Notes: generated by a model not told the origin, from the sequence alone. A stretch of 31,635 nt of DNA from Candidatus Aenigmatarchaeota archaeon (GCA_030616125.1 JAUWXZ010000001.1:1-31635), one strand, 5' to 3'; shown: positions 5,286-25,561, counted from the stretch's first letter. A program made the numbers and translations.

Positions 5286-8200
5286 AAAAAATGATTTTGC
5301 TTTTATTGGCTTTATTTTTCTTTATTTATTTTTCTCCCTTAGCTAAGGCAGAATGGTGGAATACAAATTGGCATTATAAATTACCTATAAATATAAGCTT
5401 TGCTTCTGAGGCAGAGAACGCTTCTGTCAATGTGACCTTAAACTTTACTGCTTTACTAGAACAAGTAGGAGATGATGATAAAACATTTGATCCAAATTCT
5501 ATCAGAGTAATTGAAGATAGCTATGAACACCCTCATGACTGGGAGAATGAAACTCTTACTAGAGGAAATGTTAGTTGGATAGCAAATGGAACTACCCCAG
5601 CAAACACCAACAGAACTTTTTACGTTTATTTTGATGTAATAGAAAATGGTGCAAAGTCGGAAGGAAAAATTATATCAGAAGAACCTTACTGGAGGTCTGG
5701 ATATGAAGATAATATGGATGTTTGGTCTAATCAGTCTACTTCCCCAGGAATAGGCTATGAATGGAATAGAACTTGGGCACAATCTTTAGAGACTTACTGG
5801 AAATGGTGTACCGAGGCTCCTATATATGATTATGCATATCTCTATGTAGATGGTTCAGAAGTTAGTCAAAAATACGGCACAGGTTCTGAAACTATTCTCT
5901 TTCAAGGAAATGGACTAGCAGCAAGATTTACGTCTGATGATAGTGTAATAGAGAGTTGTACGGACGGATATGGCACATATGGAACTGCTGTTGATTGGGT
6001 AAAGTTTTACGAAACAGCAAACTATACCACTCCTGCTTTTAGTGAATTTTTTGGCAATACACAAACTCAATATCCTCCAGTGCTGGAAAATTTTATTGTT
6101 TCACCTTCCTTAGATGGATGGGGAGAATATTTTAACTATACTGTTGATGTTTCTGACAGAGAAAACGATGAGGTAAATGTTACTCTATGGGTAAATAAAA
6201 GTACTGGATGGGAAAAACAAGAAACAAAAACAATAACTCCACCTGGAGAATTGTACTGGTATATTTCTATTTTTTCTTGTTCAGATATCGGAGCAAGACA
6301 ATATAAGTTTGAATATAAAGACTGGGCTCATGATTGGGAAAACACTTCTACGCAAACAGGTCCAACTCTAGAAAACGATGATATTTCTCTAGAATATCTA
6401 ACTGGAAATGATACTTCAGTCAATAGGGAAGGAAATTACAATGTTACTCTGGGAATAAGATTTAAAGATCTAGACAAAAACCAATGGGTTTCAGGAGAAA
6501 CAGTAAACTTCTGGGTTTTCTATTCCAGTACTTGGAATCAAGTAGGATCTAACACAAGCGATACTGATGGAAACACAACTTTTGATTTCGATCCAAATTG
6601 TTCTGTAGAGGTTGGAAATCATAACTGGAAAGCAAATTACAGCAACACTTGTTACAAATCTAATGAATCAGACACTTTCTCTTTCGATGTAATAGGTCAA
6701 TTAAAAAATTATTTGGAAAAACCTTTGCAAGACTCTGTTTATTGGCAAGGCGACCAAATTCCTTTAGAAGCTAATGTTACTGATGAATGTACAAATTTTA
6801 TAATTGGAGCAGTAGTTAATTTTACTCTGAATGAAACAGTAGATGTTTGTTCAGCTGATGATAAAGGAGATGGGACTTATAACTGTACGTGGGATTCTTC
6901 AGGAAAGCCTTTAGGTAATTATTCTGTCAGAGTAAATTCTTCAAAATCTAATTATAATTTTAATTCAACTCTTTGGGAAGATAGATTTTCTTTAGAAACT
7001 GCCCCACCCTCAATTACAATCAATCTTTCAAAATATCAGATAGAACAACTGGACTCACTGCAGATAAATGCTACTGTTATTGATAATTCTGGAACAGGAA
7101 TCGATTGGGTAAAAATAAATGTCACAAGACCCAATGGGACTTTGGACCAAGAAAACATGACAAATTTGGTTTCAAACATTTGGAGCATCGACTATCCAAA
7201 TAGCTGGGGGAATACTTCTGAAAGAGGAACCTACAACATAACTGTTTATGCTAAAGACAATGTTCCAAAAACTGGAACTTCTAATGATACTTTTAAAGTT
7301 TATATCAAGCTTAATGTAACACTAAAAACTCAAGAGGCTATTTACTATCAAGGCGATACCGGAAGGCTTGAGTATACACTTAAAGATATGGATAATAATT
7401 CCGTAGCAAATTCTAATGTCACTTTTGAAATAAAAAATCCCAACCAGGTTTTAATTTGGAACGATGACAATATTATTAGTGTAACAAACCAAAACGGAAC
7501 CATCGAACCCCTACCAAGCTTTGAACTCGCTTCAGATGATCCCATTGGACAATATAGACTCTACTCCTTCACAAGCTATTGGGATACTCTAGCTGGTGTT
7601 ACAGTTAGCAAGGAGAATAACTACACATTCAATGTTTCTGAAAAACCAGTAGTAGAGATGCTAGCACTAAGTTTAGAAGCACCAGCAGAAGCAGCAGTCG
7701 GAAAAAAATTACAAGTTTCGGCGACTGTAACAGATAGTGTAAAAAATATAGATGTTGATTCTGCAAAAACAAGCTTGTACGACCCACTAAATAATCTAAT
7801 AGTAGATAATGTCGCGATGGATCATGTCAGTACAGGAATATACAGCAGAAACTATACAACCTCTTCTTCATCAACTCAAGGTAATTGGAAGTGGATTGTT
7901 AATGTAACCAAGGGTTCTAACAGCATAATAAAGGAAATTTTCACACGCTTAGTTGGAGGACCATTTGATGTAAGGAACATAACTGTAATTGACAATATAA
8001 TTCCAGATCTTAGTATTTCGGTTATAATAGAAAACAAAGGAGATGCGGGACAAGATGTAACTGTAGAGTGGAACTTGACCAGAACTGATACAGGAAAAAG
8101 CCTGGATAGTGGAGCTGCGACAATCTATATAGAGGGTCTTTCAACAAAAGTTCACATAGTCCAACCAAGCACAAATTATCTTGGTGAAGTAAAAATAACT

Positions 8201-20158: not shown

Positions 20159-20686
20159 TTATTTTTCCCAAACCTTTTTCTCTAATTCTATATATTCCTT
20201 ATGTCTTTTTTCTACTGTTTTCAAAGTTCGCTGAATTCTTTCGTGTCTTTTGGCTAGTTCTTCTGGAATTGTTAAATTGTTCTTAGAATAATAATCGTAA
20301 ATTGCTTCGCTCAGAGCATCACTTGCTAAAATTGAACAATGGATTTTTATTGGTGGTAAACCCCCTAAAGCTTTTGAAACATCTTTTCTTGAAATTTTCA
20401 TTGCTTCCTCCAAAGTCTTACCTTTTGCTAGACTTGTTATCATACTGCTTGTAGCTATTGCTGCAACGCAACCAAAAGTTTCAAATTTTATGTCAGAAAT
20501 CTTTTTCTTTTTAGTTTTTTTATCTTCTTTTACTTTGATGTAAACCCACATCACATCTCCACATATCGGATTACCTACTTTTCCTATTCCGTCAGGCCTT
20601 TTCATTCTACCCATGTTATGTGGTTTCTTGAAATGTTTTATCACTTCTTTTGAATACAAATCAAAATAAGGTTTCGTCTTTTTCAC
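20159..20686 (-). CDS. iscU: IscU/NifU Fe-S cluster scaffold with C-terminal helical extension
   Basis: HFKKPHNMG, GNPICGDVM, FETFGCVAAIA and KIHCS supply the three conserved Cys. Confidence 0.95.
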   Translation of the reverse strand: MKKTKPYFDLYSKEVIKHFKKPHNMGRMKRPDGIGKVGNPICGDVMWVYIKVKEDKKTKKKKISDIKFETFGCVAAIATSSMITSLAKGKTLEEAMKISRKDVSKALGGLPPIKIHCSILASDALSEAIYDYYSKNNLTIPEELAKRHERIQRTLKTVEKRHKEYIELEKKVWEK

Positions 20687-20696
20687 CTGAATTTGA

Positions 20697-21062
20697 TCAT
20701 TCTACTGTACATACTGGACCCGGACAAGATGGAGATGTTAAGAAATTTATTAACAATATAAACAAAAATATCGAAAGTGTTGTGAACACTATCCCGACCA
20801 CTATCAAGGTTATGTTAAATTTTCTTTCATCATAAAGGAATTTTCCTATAGATGGCATGCCTTTTTCAGAAAACCACATAGATACAGCATGTCTCATCCT
20901 GCTGTCGAATGAAGCCACACACTTCCTGCGTCTAATTTTATCCAAAAAACAGCGCCATCCTTCTTTTATATAACCTCTGTATTTTGGGAAGAAGATGCTC
21001 AGTATAGCAAAATAGCTAATCAAAACAAGGCATGGGATGCAAAACAGAACCACTTTTTTCAC
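20697..21062 (-). CDS. Hypothetical Cys-containing membrane protein
   Basis: 121 aa with two hydrophobic segments, CIPC near the N-terminus and CPGPVC at the C-terminus. Abuts iscS with no gap. Confidence 0.7.
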   Translation of the reverse strand: MKKVVLFCIPCLVLISYFAILSIFFPKYRGYIKEGWRCFLDKIRRRKCVASFDSRMRHAVSMWFSEKGMPSIGKFLYDERKFNITLIVVGIVFTTLSIFLFILLINFLTSPSCPGPVCTVE

Positions 21063-22217
21063 CTATTTCTTAAACGGACTTATCTTCCTTAGATTTTCTA
21101 CTATTCTTGGCAAAACCTCTAAAACATAATCTATGTCTGCATTTTTATTTTGTTTGCCTAAGGTTAATCTCAGGGAGCCATGGGCCTGCTCTGGCTTTAA
21201 ACCTATTACCATTAATACATGAGAGGGTTCTAAAGATTCGGAAGAACATGCAGAGCCAGTAGAGGCAGCTACTCCTTTCATGTCCAAGTGTAAAACTAAA
21301 GATTCCCCTTCGATAAAGGCAAACCAAAAATTAGTGTTATTTGGCAACCTTAATGTCGGATGTCCATTCAAATACGAATTATCAATTTTCAAAATACCTT
21401 CTATTAGTTTGTCTCTAAGCTTGCTTAACCTTTTAGCTTCCGAATCCATCTCTTTTTTTGCGATATCAACAACAGCACCAAAACCAACTATTCCCGCAAC
21501 GTTTACTGTAGAAGAACGTAAACCAAATTCATGTCCACCTCCATGCAACAGAGGGTCTAATTTTATTCCTTGCCTAACAAATAAAGTTCCTACCCCCTTC
21601 GGGCCATACATCTTATGAGCATTTGCTGTCAACATATCTATGTTCATTTTGTTCACATCGATTGGAATTTTTCCAAAACTCTGTGCAGCATCTGTATGGA
21701 AACATACATCATAGTCATGACAAACCTTTCCTATTTCTTTTATCGGCTCTATTGTACCTATCTCATTGTTTGCATGCATTATCGAAACGAGAATCGTATC
21801 TTTTCTAATATGGTCTTCCAATTGTTTTGGGTCTATCAAACCATACTTATCTACAGGTAAAAAAGTTACCTCAAATCCTTGTTTTTCAAGCCAATGGGCA
21901 GAATCTAAAACGCAATGATGCTCGATGGAAGAAATGATTATGTGCTTACCTTTTTTCTTATTTGCAAATGCAAATCCTTTCAAAGCCAAATTGTTGCTCT
22001 CAGTTGCAGAACCAGTAAATATTATATCATTTTTTTTCGCTCTGATTAAACTCGCAACTTTTTCTCTCGATTCTTCTAATGCTCTTTTTGCCTCTCTTCC
22101 AATGCTATACAAAGACATTGTGTTACCAAAGTTTGTCATGAAATAGGGTTTCATAGCTTCGAATGCTCTTGAGTCTACAGGTGTTGTTGCAGCATAATCC
22201 ATGTAAATCCTTCTCAT
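21063..22217 (-). CDS. iscS: Cysteine desulfurase IscS/NifS
   Basis: IYMDYAATT, GSATESNN, HTDAAQSFGK, NAHKMYGPKG (PLP Lys) and TGSACSS (catalytic Cys). ATG 22217 overlaps the upstream TGA and is preferred over TTG 22247. Confidence 0.96.
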   Translation of the reverse strand: MRRIYMDYAATTPVDSRAFEAMKPYFMTNFGNTMSLYSIGREAKRALEESREKVASLIRAKKNDIIFTGSATESNNLALKGFAFANKKKGKHIIISSIEHHCVLDSAHWLEKQGFEVTFLPVDKYGLIDPKQLEDHIRKDTILVSIMHANNEIGTIEPIKEIGKVCHDYDVCFHTDAAQSFGKIPIDVNKMNIDMLTANAHKMYGPKGVGTLFVRQGIKLDPLLHGGGHEFGLRSSTVNVAGIVGFGAVVDIAKKEMDSEAKRLSKLRDKLIEGILKIDNSYLNGHPTLRLPNNTNFWFAFIEGESLVLHLDMKGVAASTGSACSSESLEPSHVLMVIGLKPEQAHGSLRLTLGKQNKNADIDYVLEVLPRIVENLRKISPFKK

Positions 22218-22579
22218 TTTTTCACTTTTTTCATTTCTATTAAGCATAAGAATGGATGTAACTTCTTATCAGAAAAAATTTTTCCTTTTCTAGTTTCTTC
22301 ACAAACTTCACAAATTTTTTCATGAAATTTTATATCTCCAGAAGCAATTTCAGCTGCAATTTTCTTTGCTAAGATCATCAGATTTTCGTTTGAGGTTAAG
22401 AGTTTTACTTTAGTTCCTCTCAAACCACTTTTGTATTGGGAGACTGCAGGCTGAGTAATTCCTAGCTTTTTAGAAACTTCTTCTTGAGTCATTCTATAAG
22501 TTTCTAACAATTCCTTTGCTATAACTGCTCTCAAAGCTGGGAGAATCTCAGAAAATACTGCCTCGCAAAAAATTCTCAT
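22214..22579 (-). CDS. HTH transcriptional regulator (COG2522-like, Cys-containing)
   Basis: CEAVFSEILPALRAVIAKEL...TQEEVSKKLGITQPAVSQY plus a C-terminal CEVC. Confidence 0.85.
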   Translation of the reverse strand: MRIFCEAVFSEILPALRAVIAKELLETYRMTQEEVSKKLGITQPAVSQYKSGLRGTKVKLLTSNENLMILAKKIAAEIASGDIKFHEKICEVCEETRKGKIFSDKKLHPFLCLIEMKKVKK

Positions 22580-22601
22580 AGAAATATTTCAAGCTTTAAA
22601 G

Positions 22602-22624
22602 TATTTAAATATAACTATGTTATA
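22602..22624 (-). promoter_or_regulatory. TATA box with adjacent palindrome TATAAC-N3-GTTATA
   Basis: Palindrome at 22610-22624. TTTAAATA at 22609-22602 on the minus strand is -30 to -23 from ATG 22579. Confidence 0.6.
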
Positions 22625-22627
22625 ATT

Positions 22628-23044
22628 TTAAACTATTCGAGCTACTCTAGATAAGGGATGACCTTTAGCTTTTATTTCTAAAGTATTGAACCAACCGAAA
22701 GGAGTTCTGATAACTTCAAAATTTCTTTGAGTTAATTCTTTCTTAATCATTTCCAATACTTCTATAGCCACTTCTGGTTTACTTAATTCGGCAAAAAGAT
22801 GAGCAAACGAGTGAAGAACTATTGTTTTAATTTTAAGTTGATTTGCTAAATTTGCTATTTCTTCCATTGCTCTCTTTGAAATATCTTCCTTTTCATTTGC
22901 GTCTTTCTTCTCAACACTTGCAAATACAAGAAGTGATTCGTTTACACTTGTAATTTTTTGTTCAGGATTTTCAATAATTTTTGACCTACCTTTTTCAGTA
23001 ATAGTAGAAATAAAAGAATCAACATGGATCATGAGCATTCTCAT
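22628..23044 (-). CDS. Stand-alone archaeal ThrRS editing domain (DTD-like fold)
   Basis: MRMLMIHVD, LLVFASVEKKD, HSFAHL and PFGWFNTLEIKAKGHPLS match the archaeal ThrRS N-terminal editing domain. The ORF ends at 138 aa with no catalytic core. Confidence 0.88.
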   Translation of the reverse strand: MRMLMIHVDSFISTITEKGRSKIIENPEQKITSVNESLLVFASVEKKDANEKEDISKRAMEEIANLANQLKIKTIVLHSFAHLFAELSKPEVAIEVLEMIKKELTQRNFEVIRTPFGWFNTLEIKAKGHPLSRVARIV

Positions 23045-24462
23045 ATTTTTTTCACCCTAGGACCCTTAGGAGTATCTTCCAGCAAATAGCCAAGCTCTTT
23101 AATTTTTTTCCTTATTTCATCTGCAGTCTTAAAATCTTCTTTTTTTCTAGCTTCTTCTCTTTTTTTGATCAACTCTTCTATTTCTTTTGGAATTTTAATC
23201 TCTTTCTTAGAAGGAATTATTTGAAAGAATTCTGCCAACTCATAAATCATTTTTTCTGCTTCCCCTAAATCTTCTTTTGAAAATTTATTTTCATCGATTT
23301 GTTTGTTAACCAAAGAAAGAGTTTCGAAAAAACATGCTAATGCTAAAGGTGTGTTTATGTCGTCCGTCATAGCAGCAAGAAATCGTTCCCTTAATTTTTC
23401 TAGTTTGTTTATGAATGCTGGTTCTTTGTCTGTTGCCCTTTTAATGCTTTCTTCAATTCTTTCTAAGGTAGAAGAAATTTTTTCAACTTTTTTTCTAGCA
23501 ACTTCTAAATTTTTTTCATTATAGTCTAACGGCTTTCTGTATTTAGTAGAAGCGAATAATAATCTCAAAGTTTCTGCTCCATGTTTTTCCAATGCAACTT
23601 CTAGTCTTACAAAATTTCCCAAGGACTTACTCATTTTTGTCCCGTTTACAGTTAACAAACCTGTATGAATCCAATATTTCACATAAGGCTTTATTCCTGT
23701 TGTAGTTTCTGCTTGAGCAACTTCTGCTTCATGATGAGGAAAAGCTAATTCAATGGCCCCACCATGAATATCATACTGTGGACCAAAATATTTTATTGCT
23801 ATGGCTGTGTCTTCTATATGCCATCCAGGATACCCCCATTCACTCCAGGGTGAAGACCATTTAAGGATATGTTCTTTCGGGGCATTTATCCATAAAACGA
23901 AATCTCTTGGATTTTTTTTGTCTGGATTTATTTCAACTCTTGCTCCTGCAACCAATTCTTTTGAGACTCTTTTAGATAATTTTCCATAGTCTTTAAACTT
24001 TGAAACTTCAAAATAGACTGAGCCATTTGAAACATATGCGTATCCGTTTTTCAGAATTGTCTCAACTTGCTCTATTATTTCTTTTATATGTTCACTTGCT
24101 CTTGGCATTAAATCTGGCTTTAAAAGTCTAAGCTTTTCAATCATTTCTAACCAGTACTTCAAATAATATTCAGCGACTTCCATTGGATGCTTTCTTTCTT
24201 CTTCTGCTTTTTTTATTACTTTATCTTCGCCTGTGTCTAGTAGATGTCCTACATCTGTCACATTTTGAAGATAAGTAACCTCATAGCCTAAAAATCTTAG
24301 AAACCTTACCAAGGTATCATAGAAAGCATAAGTTCGAGCATGGCCTAGATGAGCATAATCATAAACTGTCATACCGCAAACAAACATCTTAACCTTTTTG
24401 TCTTTAAGAGATCTAAATTCTTCTTTTTTTCCTGTTAATGTATTGAAAACTCTTAAAGTCAT
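23041..24462 (-). CDS. cysS: Cysteinyl-tRNA synthetase
   Basis: MTLRVFNTLT start with RBS GTGA, VCGMTVYD, HLGHAR, PGWHIED, FPHHEAE, KMSKSLGN. The ORF-track N-terminal extension runs through the tRNA gene and is not used. Confidence 0.96.
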   Translation of the reverse strand: MTLRVFNTLTGKKEEFRSLKDKKVKMFVCGMTVYDYAHLGHARTYAFYDTLVRFLRFLGYEVTYLQNVTDVGHLLDTGEDKVIKKAEEERKHPMEVAEYYLKYWLEMIEKLRLLKPDLMPRASEHIKEIIEQVETILKNGYAYVSNGSVYFEVSKFKDYGKLSKRVSKELVAGARVEINPDKKNPRDFVLWINAPKEHILKWSSPWSEWGYPGWHIEDTAIAIKYFGPQYDIHGGAIELAFPHHEAEVAQAETTTGIKPYVKYWIHTGLLTVNGTKMSKSLGNFVRLEVALEKHGAETLRLLFASTKYRKPLDYNEKNLEVARKKVEKISSTLERIEESIKRATDKEPAFINKLEKLRERFLAAMTDDINTPLALACFFETLSLVNKQIDENKFSKEDLGEAEKMIYELAEFFQIIPSKKEIKIPKEIEELIKKREEARKKEDFKTADEIRKKIKELGYLLEDTPKGPRVKKI

Positions 24463-24473
24463 TTTATCACGAG

Positions 24474-24546
24474 AGCCAAGGGCAGGATTTGAACCCACAT
24501 AGACCGCTCTGCAGGCGGTTACATAACCGGATTCTGTCACCTTGGC
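24474..24546 (-). tRNA. tRNA-Cys (GCA), no intron, CCA not encoded
   Basis: Acceptor stem GCCAAGG/CCTTGGC, anticodon arm ACCGC-CT-GCA-GA-GCGGT, T loop TTCAAAT, and discriminator U as expected for tRNA-Cys. Confidence 0.95.
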
Positions 24547-25082
24547 TTTAAAATTTTTTCCCAATCCAAGAGTGGATATCTATTTATCGTCCTTTTTTTT
24601 GCACTACTACCAAGATAATCCCCTAAAAACAAAATAGAACCTTCACTTTTGTGATATCCTGTTGAACCTGTTCTATCAAATTCATCTTTAATAGGATAGG
24701 TATGACCTTCTTTAACGATTGTTATTGAGGGAAAATATAAAGGAGTTTCCTTTAAAAACTCGCCCCCATCAAACATCATTTCTCTGAGATCATGGGTAGT
24801 TCTTGGTTCCCTTATAAACATTATTTTTCGAGAATTTTCATTTGACTGAACAAGAAGTTTATCTTCAGGTGTAATTTTATCAACGAAATCAATAGATCTT
24901 GGAAACATGTCATGATTAGCCAACAGCTCAGTGACTAATAAAGCGGCCCTTGGATGAGATCCTCTATCTATTTTCAAATTTATTTTCAAATTAGTTTCAT
25001 AGTACAGGAATCTAGCAGATAAAGGTGGAGTAATATCTTTATCTAAAAGTTCTAAGGGCACATTATAGGCAAAGACGTCCAC
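24537..25082 (-). CDS. Hypothetical protein
   Basis: 181-aa ORF with GTG start and no motif I recognise. Its stop codon lies inside the tRNA 5' end. Confidence 0.6.
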   Translation of the reverse strand: MDVFAYNVPLELLDKDITPPLSARFLYYETNLKINLKIDRGSHPRAALLVTELLANHDMFPRSIDFVDKITPEDKLLVQSNENSRKIMFIREPRTTHDLREMMFDGGEFLKETPLYFPSITIVKEGHTYPIKDEFDRTGSTGYHKSEGSILFLGDYLGSSAKKRTINRYPLLDWEKILKPR

Positions 25083-25150: not shown

Positions 25151-25561
25151 ATGAAAGCACCCTGTGAATTAGTAAGCAATGTAGTTCTTCCCAGTATTAG
25201 AGCTTGGATAGTGAGAGAATCTGTGAAGAAAGGGATAAAACAAAAAGATGTTGCTAAAACTCTAGGCTTAACAGATGCTGCTGTTTCTCAGTACTTGAAA
25301 AAGAAAAGAGCAGATATAGGAGTAAGTGAAAAGGAGTTAAAACAAATAAAACCTTTGATAGATGATATAACAAAAAGAATAGTAGCTGGAAAACTTACAG
25401 ATTTTGATTTGATGAAACTTATATGCAAGGCTTGTATTTCATTAAGAGCTTCATTAGTTCTTTGCAAACTACACATGATAGCTGAGCCTAAACTTAAAAA
25501 AATAGACTGTACATTTTGTGAAGAATTACTTAGAAGTTACAGGAAATTAGATTTGAAATAA
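25151..25561 (+). CDS. HTH transcriptional regulator (COG2522-like), Cys-rich C-terminus
   Basis: PCELVSNVVLPSIRA...KQKDVAKTLGLTDAAVSQYLKKKR, then CKAC, LCKLH and CTFC. Confidence 0.87.
   Translation: MKAPCELVSNVVLPSIRAWIVRESVKKGIKQKDVAKTLGLTDAAVSQYLKKKRADIGVSEKELKQIKPLIDDITKRIVAGKLTDFDLMKLICKACISLRASLVLCKLHMIAEPKLKKIDCTFCEELLRSYRKLDLK

What the first reader, a model, noticed from the sequence alone, without database searches (positions are those of the whole stretch)
22628..23044. Free-standing ThrRS editing domain translationally coupled to cysS
Seen: only the ~140-aa editing domain, with an ATGA overlap with the cysS stop and no thrS in the window. Established: this DTD-like domain hydrolyses Ser-tRNA(Thr), and the crenarchaeal trans-acting ThrRS-ed also carries an anticodon-binding domain, which is absent here. 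Inference: a minimal trans-editing factor whose specificity may be broader or redirected, for example to proofread tRNA-Cys charged by the variant CysRS next door.
Basis: partly seen in the sequence, partly recalled or inferred. Interest (0 to 1): 0.6.

Follow-up and report, generated by a model that had tools for sequence, protein, structure and literature searches.

The report
Rewired stand-alone tRNA-editing domain behind cysS
A tiny archaeon carries, right behind its cysteine tRNA and cysteinyl-tRNA synthetase genes, a horizontally acquired stand-alone copy of a tRNA-proofreading domain with a rebuilt substrate pocket. It is probably not the known Ser-tRNA(Thr) editor but an uncharacterised deacylase linked to cysteine and sulfur metabolism.

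Summary
ORF 22628-23044 (-) is a 138-aa full-length PF08915 domain, and its ATG overlaps the cysS stop (ATGA).

- A tRNA-Cys(GCA) gene (24473-24546, -) ends 10 nt before the true cysS start. The unit is therefore tRNA-Cys / cysS / editing domain.
- The genome has a full-length ThrRS that keeps its own canonical editing domain.
- The genome also has a SepCysS-SepRS operon.

The protein is not a canonical editing domain. It belongs to a stand-alone subfamily, found in both Archaea and Bacteria, in which the amino-acid pocket residues are replaced: Tyr120 to Phe, Lys121 to Asn, Glu134 to Arg. The adenosine/catalytic scaffold is kept.

None of 60 relatives has it. It nests among Bathyarchaeia and Asgard sequences and is under purifying selection (dN/dS about 0.1).

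The cysS linkage holds only in close metagenome relatives (84-99% identity). It is 0 of 80 elsewhere, and the CysRS is ordinary.

Unrelated carriers nonetheless place the gene beside cysteine or sulfur genes:
- a cysE-cysK operon;
- DsrE neighbours and one DsrE fusion;
- SepCysS plus tRNA-Cys;
- TtcA-like and BigR-like genes.

No member of the subfamily has been characterised. Mukai et al. (2017, 2022) noted such homologues. This scan has met the same family before in bacterial windows.

The parts
24473..24546 (-). tRNA-Cys(GCA) gene with discriminator U73 and no encoded CCA. It ends 10 nt before the cysS ATG.
   Evidence: ARAGORN; sequence read; discriminator derived. The same tRNA-Cys / cysS order occurs in L119 and in 8 of 29 relatives' cysS loci.
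23041..24462 (-). cysS, a canonical class I cysteinyl-tRNA synthetase (473 aa). Its stop overlaps the ED start.
   Evidence: TIGR00435 481 bits vs cut-off 340; PF01406, DALR_2 and CysS_C domains. It is 65-71% identical to the CysRS of same-family relatives.
23052..23057 (-). GGGTGA Shine-Dalgarno-like motif inside the 3' end of cysS, 7 nt before the ED ATG.
   Evidence: Read from the sequence. Function is inferred, not tested.
22628..23044 (-). Stand-alone ThrRS-editing-like (DTD-like fold) protein of the 'FN...R' type, 138 aa.
   Evidence: PF08915 140.5 bits. PDB 4RRF E=7e-30. Model pLDDT 88, TM 0.88-0.90 to 4RRF and 1Y2Q. Subfamily signature. dN/dS 0.08-0.11.
22580..22627 (-). 48-nt spacer after the ED stop. 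It holds an A/T-rich TATA-like stretch and a TAAC-ATA-GTTA palindrome in front of the HTH gene, so the HTH-nifS unit probably has its own promoter.
   Evidence: Read from the sequence. The palindrome was also noted by another first-reader note on this window (e1-5284938). Not tested.
22214..22579 (-). HTH_3 (XRE-type) regulator, 121 aa.
   Evidence: PF01381 28.5 bits. Kept downstream of the ED in the P0003 contig and in L119.
21063..22247 (-). nifS, cysteine desulfurase.
   Evidence: TIGR03402 535.6 bits vs cut-off 530.75.
20697..21062 (-). 121-aa ORF with no family match, lying between nifS and nifU.
   Evidence: No Pfam hit. The relative G015 has nifS followed directly by nifU.
20159..20686 (-). 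nifU/IscU-type Fe-S scaffold.
   Evidence: PF01592 143 bits.

Best explanation
The gene encodes a functional, free-standing paralogue of the archaeal ThrRS N-terminal editing domain (DTD-like fold). It belongs to a distinct stand-alone subfamily that occurs patchily in Archaea and Bacteria. This Aenigmatarchaeota-like DPANN lineage acquired it horizontally, probably from a Bathyarchaeia- or Asgard-like donor. It now sits as the last gene of a tRNA-Cys / cysS transcription unit and is translationally coupled to cysS. The protein keeps the scaffold that binds the 3'-terminal adenosine and supports RNA-assisted hydrolysis (His83 equivalent, PFGW, KGHP) and is predicted to form the same homodimer. 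All three functional side chains of the amino-acid pocket are replaced: Tyr120 to Phe, Lys121 to Asn, and the cross-subunit Glu134 to Arg. The subfamily also has a specific Arg20 loop. It therefore most likely still removes an acyl group from the 3' end of a tRNA in trans, but with a different acyl (and perhaps tRNA) specificity from Ser-tRNA(Thr) editing, which the genome's own ThrRS covers. The recurrent cysteine and sulfur context points to quality control of tRNA-Cys charging, for example removal of a sulfur-modified, anionic or otherwise non-cognate acyl group. Shown here: domain identity, fold, signature, distribution, selection and gene order. Inferred: deacylase activity, altered specificity and the tRNA-Cys target.
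For: Domain and fold:
- PF08915 over the full length.
- TM 0.88-0.90 to MjNTD and PabNTD structures.
- Homodimer prediction: score 0.89, best of 3 controls 0.00. That mark was reached by 20 of 30 proteins solved as pairs of one chain and 1 of 23 solved as single chains. The runs agree in 100% of contacts and partner pLDDT is at least 94. His82 of one chain touches Arg133 of the other. NTD homodimers are solved, so this pass may reflect likeness only.

Scaffold kept, pocket changed:
- Conserved in both types: A81, H82, L83, P115, F116, G117, W118, K127, H129, P130.
- Conserved in each type but different: R20/E, H78/Y, F84/S, N120/K, S132/A, R133/E.
- Among the 150 best library representatives, 75 read YK...E and 11 read FN...R. 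All 11 FN...R representatives are 167 aa or shorter.
- According to PMC4491819, Tyr120 and Glu134 are the two pocket side chains, and Glu134 holds the alpha-amino group across subunits.

Non-redundancy:
- The own ThrRS (G000:C17, 617 aa) keeps K121 and E134 and is 29% identical to the ED.
- Bacterium G087 has a canonical ED fused to SepRS as well as a free FN-type copy.

Horizontal transfer:
- None of 60 relatives has an FN-type copy. Their 27-39% matches are all canonical.
- The tree puts the window protein inside an archaeal FN subclade.
- Relative G015 has cysS-nifS-nifU with no ED or HTH gene.

Selection: dN/dS 0.08-0.11 at dS 0.8-1.1.

Cysteine and sulfur context:
- Here: tRNA-Cys / cysS / ED / HTH / nifS / nifU.
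- cysE-cysK-ED operon in three Asgard genomes.
- L121: BigR-like ArsR, Trx-OsmC, SQR, ED, DsrE-like, then tRNA-Cys and SepCysS.
- DsrE-like genes within 2 kb in 6 of 80 carriers and none at 2-6 kb, plus an ED-DsrE fusion protein seen in two samples.
- TtcA-like gene 44 bp upstream in Bacillota.

Other points:
- tRNA-Cys and tRNA-Thr of this genome both have U73.
- The genome also has SepCysS-SepRS, which only 2 of 61 genomes in its group have.
Against: - No activity was or could be measured.
- PMC4491819 shows that PabNTD and ApNTD Y120A/E134A mutants still edit Ser-tRNA(Thr). The substitutions therefore do not prove a new specificity.
- The cysS linkage is confined to one narrow lineage. cysS is within 6 kb in 0 of 80 other carriers, and so is tRNA-Cys.
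- No neighbour family occurs in more than 9 of 80 loci.
- The sulfur theme rests on several small, partly related groups.
- My estimate of chance expectation for DsrE neighbours is rough.
- The 80 genome loci were found with a peptide pattern containing FGWFN, so the invariance of Phe119 and Asn120 in that set is partly circular. R133, R20, H78 and F84 lie outside the patterns.
- Tree support for the archaeal placement is 85-89 SH-aLRT on a quick tree.
Confidence: 0.5

Rival explanations
1. It is simply a second, redundant trans-acting Ser-tRNA(Thr) (or generic Ser-tRNA) deacylase. It would back up the cis editing domain of ThrRS, and its place behind cysS would be accidental.
For: Side chains of the NTD pocket are dispensable for Ser/Thr discrimination in vitro (PMC4491819). 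His83 and the adenosine scaffold are kept. tRNA-Thr has U73. The cysS linkage is not conserved outside the genus-level lineage.
Against: Every carrier checked already has an editing ThrRS or a canonical ED, so redundancy would not explain near-invariant R133, R20, H78 and F84 across Bacteria and Archaea. It would also not explain dN/dS of about 0.1. Canonical domains keep YK...E almost universally. Bacterial ThrRS enzymes edit with a different domain (established knowledge).
Confidence: 0.15
2. It is the Ser-tRNA(Cys) editor proposed by Mukai et al. for the SepRS/SepCysS route. It would clear Ser-tRNA(Cys) formed when Sep-tRNA(Cys) is dephosphorylated.
For: The hypothesis is published for stand-alone and SepRS-fused tRNA-Thr-ED (PMC5424206, PMC8762117). 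This genome has SepCysS-SepRS, which is rare among its relatives (2 of 61). L121 has an FN-type ED near SepCysS and tRNA-Cys. tRNA-Cys has U73.
Against: 72 of 80 FN-type carriers have no SepRS. In G087 the SepRS-fused ED is canonical (YK...E) and the FN-type copy is an extra gene. A serine pocket would not need Glu to Arg and Lys to Asn changes. G001 has SepRS without an FN-type ED.
Confidence: 0.12
3. It is a general chirality or damage checkpoint, that is, a deacylase for D-aminoacyl-, N-blocked or hydroxyacyl-tRNA. It would stand in for DTD/DTD2, which this small genome lacks.
For: DTD2 (PF04414) was not found in the 90%-complete genome. The protein has the DTD-like fold. Loss of the Glu that binds the alpha-amino group would fit a substrate without a free L-alpha-amine. 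Mukai's Text S1 suggests aminoacyl- or hydroxyacyl-tRNA hydrolysis.
Against: 60 relatives manage without it. DTD2 and DTD were not checked in the relatives or in the bacterial carriers. TM to DTD structures is only about 0.6. This reading does not explain the sulfur context.
Confidence: 0.08
4. It no longer acts on tRNA. The adenosine pocket and the new Arg-rich site would bind a 3'-substituted adenosine nucleotide of sulfur metabolism (CoA, a CoA persulfide, PAP or PAPS), acting as a sensor or hydrolase.
For: Two Glu to Arg reversals and one Lys to Asn change sit around the site that held the 3'-ester. Neighbours include CoA-transferases (8 of 252 ORFs) and ADP-forming acyl-CoA synthetases (7), as well as DsrE and SQR.
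Against: This is pure inference. No DTD-fold protein is known to do this (my knowledge). RNA-assisted ester hydrolysis does not carry over to phosphate esters. The tRNA-Cys / cysS placement argues for a tRNA substrate.
Confidence: 0.05

Closest known systems
N-terminal editing domain (NTD) of archaeal ThrRS (PabNTD 1Y2Q/2HL1, MjNTD 4RRF; Pfam PF08915)
   Same: Same Pfam family and fold (TM 0.88-0.90, 37-43% identity). Same predicted homodimer with a cross-subunit active site. Conserved His83, PFG[WY] and KGHP scaffold.
   Different: Free-standing rather than fused to ThrRS. Pocket residues are Phe/Asn/Arg instead of Tyr120/Lys121/Glu134. Also Tyr79 to His, Ser85 to Phe, and a subfamily-specific Gly19-Arg20 loop. 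Only 29% identical to the same genome's ThrRS NTD.
Crenarchaeal trans-editing ThrRS-ed / ThrRS-2 (Korencic et al. 2004; ApNTD 4RR6)
   Same: Acts, or is presumed to act, in trans. Same editing fold.
   Different: ThrRS-ed carries an anticodon-binding domain and serves a ThrRS-cat that lacks editing (PMC5424206 Text S1). Here there is no such domain, and the ThrRS has its own editing domain. NF011500 scores 91 against a cut-off of 362.
Stand-alone 'tRNA-Thr-ED' homologues of Mukai et al. (mBio 2017 PMC5424206; Front Genet 2022 PMC8762117)
   Same: Single-domain, without the anticodon-binding domain. Glu135 is not conserved. Associated with tRNA-Cys and sulfur-metabolism genes. One FN-type sequence (Peptococcaceae BRH_c8a) is in their data set.
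   Different: The SepCysS-linked groups they discuss keep WYK (MSBL1 example) or carry a Cys-rich tail. Here the partner in cis is CysRS, not SepCysS, which lies on another contig. The pocket is the FN...R type.
DTD and ATD, the other DTD-fold trans-editing factors
   Same: Small free-standing homodimeric deacylases of the same fold superfamily.
   Different: TM only about 0.6 and 12-17% identity. The Gly-cisPro motif of DTD was not examined.

Membership tests
Archaeal ThrRS editing domain, PF08915 (NTD, DTD-like fold) | Sequence match to the family model above its curated cut-off, over the full length | tested here: met
   140.5 bits vs 30.2; residues 1-136 against profile 1-135 of 137.
Archaeal ThrRS editing domain, PF08915 (NTD, DTD-like fold) | DTD-like fold superposable on solved NTDs | tested here: met
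   AlphaFold2 model pLDDT 88. Foldseek TM 0.88-0.90 to 4RRF, 1Y2Q and 2HL1.
Archaeal ThrRS editing domain, PF08915 (NTD, DTD-like fold) | Homodimer with a cross-subunit active site | tested here: met
   Prediction only. Score 0.89, best control 0.00 (mark reached by 20 of 30 solved homo-pairs and 1 of 23 single chains). H82 contacts R133 of the other chain. May reflect likeness to solved NTD dimers.
Archaeal ThrRS editing domain, PF08915 (NTD, DTD-like fold) | Adenosine-76 / catalytic scaffold (His83, PFG[WY], KGHP) | tested here: met
   H82, P115-F116-G117-W118, K127-G128-H129-P130.
Archaeal ThrRS editing domain, PF08915 (NTD, DTD-like fold) | Serine-pocket residues Tyr120, Lys121, Glu134 (PabNTD numbering) | tested here: not met
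   Phe119, Asn120, Arg133. Of the 150 library representatives, 75 read YK...E, and all 29 relatives' domains keep Lys121, with Glu134 wherever the printed match reaches it.
Archaeal ThrRS editing domain, PF08915 (NTD, DTD-like fold) | Ser-tRNA(Thr) deacylase activity | not testable with these tools
   Needs a biochemical assay.
Crenarchaeal ThrRS-ed (Ser-tRNA(Thr) hydrolase, NF011500) | Editing domain joined to an anticodon-binding domain; score above the curated cut-off | tested here: not met
   138 aa only. 91.4 bits vs cut-off 362, matching profile positions 1-131 of 387.
Crenarchaeal ThrRS-ed (Ser-tRNA(Thr) hydrolase, NF011500) | Partner ThrRS-cat that lacks an editing domain | tested here: not met
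   The genome's ThrRS (C17:1386-3239, 617 aa) has PF08915, PF00587 and PF03129.
Stand-alone tRNA-Thr-ED of Mukai et al. | Single domain, no anticodon-binding domain, Glu135 equivalent not conserved | tested here: met
   Definition taken from Text S1 of PMC5424206.
Stand-alone tRNA-Thr-ED of Mukai et al. | Gene neighbourhood with tRNA-Cys and sulfur-metabolism genes | tested here: met
   tRNA-Cys, cysS, nifS and nifU on the same strand within 4.4 kb.
Stand-alone tRNA-Thr-ED of Mukai et al. | Adjacent clade VII SepCysS gene | tested here: not met
   SepCysS-SepRS lie on another contig (C21). The clade of this SepCysS was not determined.

The most novel reading that the evidence does not exclude
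The FN...R stand-alone proteins would be a fourth functional class of the DTD-like fold, after DTD, NTD and ATD. They would proofread cysteine decoding by removing sulfur-modified or otherwise wrong acyl groups (persulfidated or oxidised Cys, Sep, Ser) from tRNA-Cys, in some organisms together with DsrE-type sulfur carriers. As far as I know, no editing system has yet been described for tRNA-Cys.
Probability: 0.2. Interest if true: 0.85.

Novelty: new variant of a known kind. Interest (0 to 1): 0.55.

Why it matters
To my knowledge, CysRS is the classic synthetase with no editing activity, and no trans-editing factor for tRNA-Cys has been shown. The subfamily described here is widespread and horizontally mobile. 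It keeps the catalytic scaffold of a known proofreading fold, has rebuilt the amino-acid pocket, and repeatedly sits beside cysteine and sulfur genes. That makes it a concrete, cheaply testable candidate for such a factor. At the least it would be a new specificity class of the DTD-like fold.

This window is the cleanest case in which the gene is wired into a tRNA-Cys / CysRS unit. The organism also has both the direct (CysRS) and indirect (SepRS/SepCysS) routes to Cys-tRNA(Cys) in a 0.56-Mb genome.

Tried and rejected
- **cysS linkage as a family trait.** tblastn with the window's CysRS found no cysS within 6 kb of the gene in 80 species-level carriers. ARAGORN found no tRNA-Cys there either. 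Rejected as a general trait.
- **One conserved neighbour.** All-against-all clustering and Pfam/NCBIfam tallies of 252 flanking ORFs gave no family in more than 9 of 80 loci.
- **SepRS co-occurrence as the explanation.** Only 8 of 80 carriers have SepRS.
- **'Variant CysRS'.** Rejected.
- **ThrRS without editing.** Rejected.
- **Fusions.** The search for longer forms found a single one, ED-DsrE. Among library representatives, the FN-type ones are all 167 aa or shorter.
- **Literature.** Only two papers mention stand-alone tRNA-Thr-ED, and neither tests it.
- **Other look-ups.** The ESM Atlas search added nothing beyond PF08915 clusters. Cluster look-ups gave no organism names. The taxon rests on named ThrRS hits, with Aenigmatarchaeota at 71-80% identity.
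- **DTD2.** Not found in the genome. Relatives and bacterial carriers were not checked, so this does not decide the DTD-substitute rival.
- **Second cysS.** The copy on the 3.2-kb contig C70 could be contamination (tetranucleotide correlation 0.956 against a median of 0.98). No weight was put on it.

Full report
**Observation**

On the minus strand, ORF 22628..23044 encodes 138 aa. It matches Pfam PF08915 (tRNA-Thr_ED) from end to end, at 140.5 bits against a cut-off of 30.2. It matches only the first ~135 positions of the full ThrRS model and of the crenarchaeal Ser-tRNA(Thr) hydrolase model, far below their cut-offs.

The coding strand reads ATGA at 23044-23041, so the ED start overlaps the cysS stop. 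A GGGTGA motif lies 7 nt upstream of the ATG. There is no thrS in the window.

The listed 507-aa TTG ORF is too long. ARAGORN finds a tRNA-Cys(GCA) gene at 24473-24546 (-). It has discriminator U73 and ends 10 nt before the ATG at 24462, which starts a 473-aa CysRS.

That CysRS is ordinary. TIGR00435 scores 481 bits against a cut-off of 340 over the full length.

**Surroundings**

The minus-strand order is:
- tRNA-Cys
- cysS
- ED
- a 48-nt spacer with a TATA-like stretch and a TAAC-ATA-GTTA palindrome
- an HTH_3 regulator
- nifS (TIGR03402, 535.6 bits)
- a 121-aa ORF with no family match
- nifU

The ED is therefore the last gene of a tRNA-Cys / cysS unit. The unit is followed by a regulator and Fe-S assembly genes.

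**The genome**

The window lies in a 562-kb assembly of 78 contigs, 90% complete. Its ThrRS is most like ThrRS of Aenigmatarchaeota MAGs (71-80% identity).

- It has a full-length archaeal ThrRS (C17:1386-3239, 617 aa) with its own editing domain. That domain keeps the canonical motifs (YPYAHLS, PFGWCK, KGHPLAE) and is 29% identical to the stand-alone protein.
- It also has a SepCysS-SepRS operon on contig C21 (567.6 bits vs 301, and 485.5 bits vs 380.65). The composition of C21 fits the genome.
- Among the genome and 60 relatives, only 2 have SepRS.
- A second cysS (41% identity) sits on a 3.2-kb contig and may be contamination.
- DTD2 was not found.
- tRNA-Thr(GGU) and tRNA-Cys both have U73.

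**What the protein is**

Aligned to PabNTD and MjNTD, it keeps His83, PFG[WY] and KGHP. It has the following replacements:
- Tyr79 to His
- Ser85 to Phe
- Tyr120 to Phe
- Lys121 to Asn
- Glu134 to Arg

According to Ahmad et al. 2015 (PMC4491819), Tyr120 and Glu134 are the two side chains of the amino-acid pocket. Glu134 holds the alpha-amino group across the dimer. Lys121 was the proposed catalytic residue. However, Y120A/E134A mutants still edit Ser-tRNA(Thr).

The replacements are not idiosyncratic. The 120 best hits of 75-242 aa all share H[PS]FAHLF, RTPFGWFN and KGHPLSR.

I compared 80 carriers with 29 canonical domains. Positions conserved in both groups but with different residues are R20/E, H78/Y, F84/S, N120/K, S132/A and R133/E.

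An exhaustive HMMER search of 1.84 billion representatives gave 75 YK...E and 11 FN...R sequences among the best 150. There were also a few F-x...R variants. Every FN-type representative was 167 aa or shorter.

One caveat applies. The genome loci were found with a pattern containing FGWFN. Only the invariance of R133, R20, H78 and F84 in that set is independent of the search.

The model has the NTD fold (pLDDT 88; TM 0.88-0.90 to 4RRF and 1Y2Q; about 0.6 to DTD).

A homodimer is predicted, with score 0.89 against a best control of 0.00. That mark was reached by 20 of 30 solved homo-pairs and 1 of 23 single chains. The runs agree in 100% of contacts, and pLDDT is at least 94. His82 touches Arg133 of the other chain, and the residue 16-20 loop touches residues 128-129. 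Because NTD dimers are solved, this shows likeness rather than independent proof.

**Origin**

None of 60 relatives of the same family or order has an FN-type copy. Their matches (27-39% identity) are the canonical domains of their ThrRS, or canonical free-standing copies in two families.

In a quick maximum-likelihood tree, the canonical domains form one clade (SH-aLRT 100). The window protein, together with two metagenome relatives (support 100), nests in an archaeal FN subclade of Bathyarchaeia, Freyarchaeota, Jordarchaeia and Heimdallarchaeota (support 85-89). The best named matches are Bathyarchaeota at 64% identity.

The window's CysRS, by contrast, is 65-71% identical to those of same-family relatives. 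tRNA-Cys lies directly upstream of cysS in 8 of 29 relatives' loci. One relative (G015) has cysS-nifS-nifU with no ED or HTH gene.

I infer that the ED, possibly together with the HTH gene, was inserted into an ancestral cysteine cluster. The transfer is not recent: GC is 30.5% against 33% for the genome. The gene is under purifying selection, with dN/dS 0.08-0.11 at dS 0.8-1.1.

**Is the cysS linkage conserved?**

Only narrowly. The order cysS-ED-HTH is kept in contigs carrying proteins 99%, 87% and 84% identical. One of them also has tRNA-Cys upstream. In 80 species-level carriers from many phyla, there is no cysS and no tRNA-Cys within 6 kb. No neighbour family occurs in more than 9 loci.

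**A recurrent theme**

Independent lineages nonetheless place the gene among cysteine or sulfur genes:
- Three Asgard genomes have a cysE-cysK-ED operon.
- A 110-kb metagenome contig (L121) has a BigR-like ArsR, a Trx-OsmC fusion, SQR type III, the ED and a DsrE-like gene. About 2.3 kb further on lie tRNA-Cys, a thioredoxin and SepCysS.
- L122 has ED, DsrE, ArsR, a metal ATPase, ThiI and ThiF.
- Five Bacillota have a TtcA-like tRNA-thiolation gene 44 bp upstream.
- DsrE-like genes lie within 2 kb in 6 of 80 carriers and never at 2-6 kb.
- One protein, seen in two samples, fuses an FN-type ED to a DsrE domain.

SepRS is present in only 8 of 80 carriers. In one of them, bacterium G087, the SepRS carries a canonical ED at its N-terminus while the FN-type gene is separate.

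**Interpretation**

Shown here:
- a real, selected, horizontally acquired stand-alone paralogue of the NTD;
- an intact scaffold with a rebuilt, more positively charged pocket;
- coexistence with canonical editing domains.

Inferred:
- It still hydrolyses an acyl ester at the 3' adenosine of a tRNA, as a dimer and in trans.
- Its acyl (and possibly tRNA) specificity differs from Ser-tRNA(Thr).
- tRNA-Cys is the most likely client here, given the operon and the sulfur theme.

I put about 0.5 on this layered reading and about 0.2 on the specific tRNA-Cys proofreading class. The rivals are:
- a redundant Ser-tRNA(Thr) editor (0.15);
- Mukai's Ser-tRNA(Cys) editor for the SepRS route (0.12);
- a DTD-like general checkpoint (0.08);
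- a non-tRNA adenosine-nucleotide ligand (0.05).

**What is known**

Mukai et al. defined stand-alone 'tRNA-Thr-ED' proteins and noted four things:
- their wide distribution;
- the lack of the Glu135 equivalent;
- linkage to SepCysS, tRNA-Cys and sulfur genes;
- fusion to bacterial SepRS.

They suggested Ser-tRNA(Cys), aminoacyl- or hydroxyacyl-tRNA hydrolysis (PMC5424206 with Text S1; PMC8762117). One FN-type sequence is in their data set. I found no experimental test in the paper library.

Earlier follow-ups of this scan reached the same family in bacterial windows. They also described a rebuilt pocket and lineage-specific neighbours.

New here:
- the tRNA-Cys / CysRS / ED unit in a DPANN genome that has both routes to Cys-tRNA(Cys);
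- the evidence for transfer;
- the DsrE fusion and the wider sulfur theme;
- coexistence with canonical editing domains as an argument for a separate function.

Noticed in passing
window 24473-24546 (-): A tRNA-Cys(GCA) gene is hidden inside the 5' end of the mechanically listed 507-aa cysS ORF. A TATA-like ATAAATAG lies at about 24580-24587, inside the 3' end of the upstream 181-aa ORF.
   Followed up: partly
G000 contig C21 (L160:3950-5518 - and 5544-6692 -): There is a SepCysS-SepRS operon in this 0.56-Mb genome, which also has CysRS. SepRS was found in only 2 of 61 genomes of the group. The other genome, G001, gave no CysRS match.
   Followed up: partly
G000 contig C70:260-1651 (+): A second cysS lies on a 3.2-kb contig. 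It is 41% identical to the window's copy and closest (49-52%) to the CysRS of other families of the order. It may be a real paralogue or binning contamination.
   Followed up: partly
L091:1501-1905, L093, L097, L116 (relatives in families f5 and f7): These loci carry free-standing canonical-type editing domains (133-138 aa open frames, with K121 and E134 kept). Each is the only PF08915-like match in its genome. They may be a ThrRS editing domain split off without an anticodon-binding domain. The ThrRS bodies of these genomes were not examined.
   Followed up: no
L159:772-2682 (+), bacterium G087: A SepRS carries an N-terminal canonical tRNA-Thr_ED fusion (637 aa), the type described in PMC8762117. 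It coexists with a free FN-type gene (L035).
   Followed up: partly
P0124; L161:875-1663, L162:676-1464: A 262-aa protein fuses an FN-type editing-like domain to a DsrE-like domain with a CGTC motif. It was seen in two sequencing runs, next to a sulfatase-family gene.
   Followed up: partly
L094 (G009:C2:20799-21215): The N-terminal domain of a relative's ThrRS is very divergent (YPYVHLLF, RTPFGYYK, PLSE). It sits on a long branch at the base of the FN clade in the quick tree. This may be an artefact or an intermediate form.
   Followed up: no
window 22214-22579 (-) and 25151-25561 (+): Two HTH_3 regulators flank the cluster. The spacer before the first holds a TAAC-ATA-GTTA palindrome beside a TATA-like stretch, as another first-reader note on this window also reported.
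   Followed up: no
whole genome G000: ARAGORN finds only 21 tRNA genes in the 90%-complete assembly. Several are long or have ambiguous anticodons, which may reflect introns or split tRNAs.
   Followed up: no
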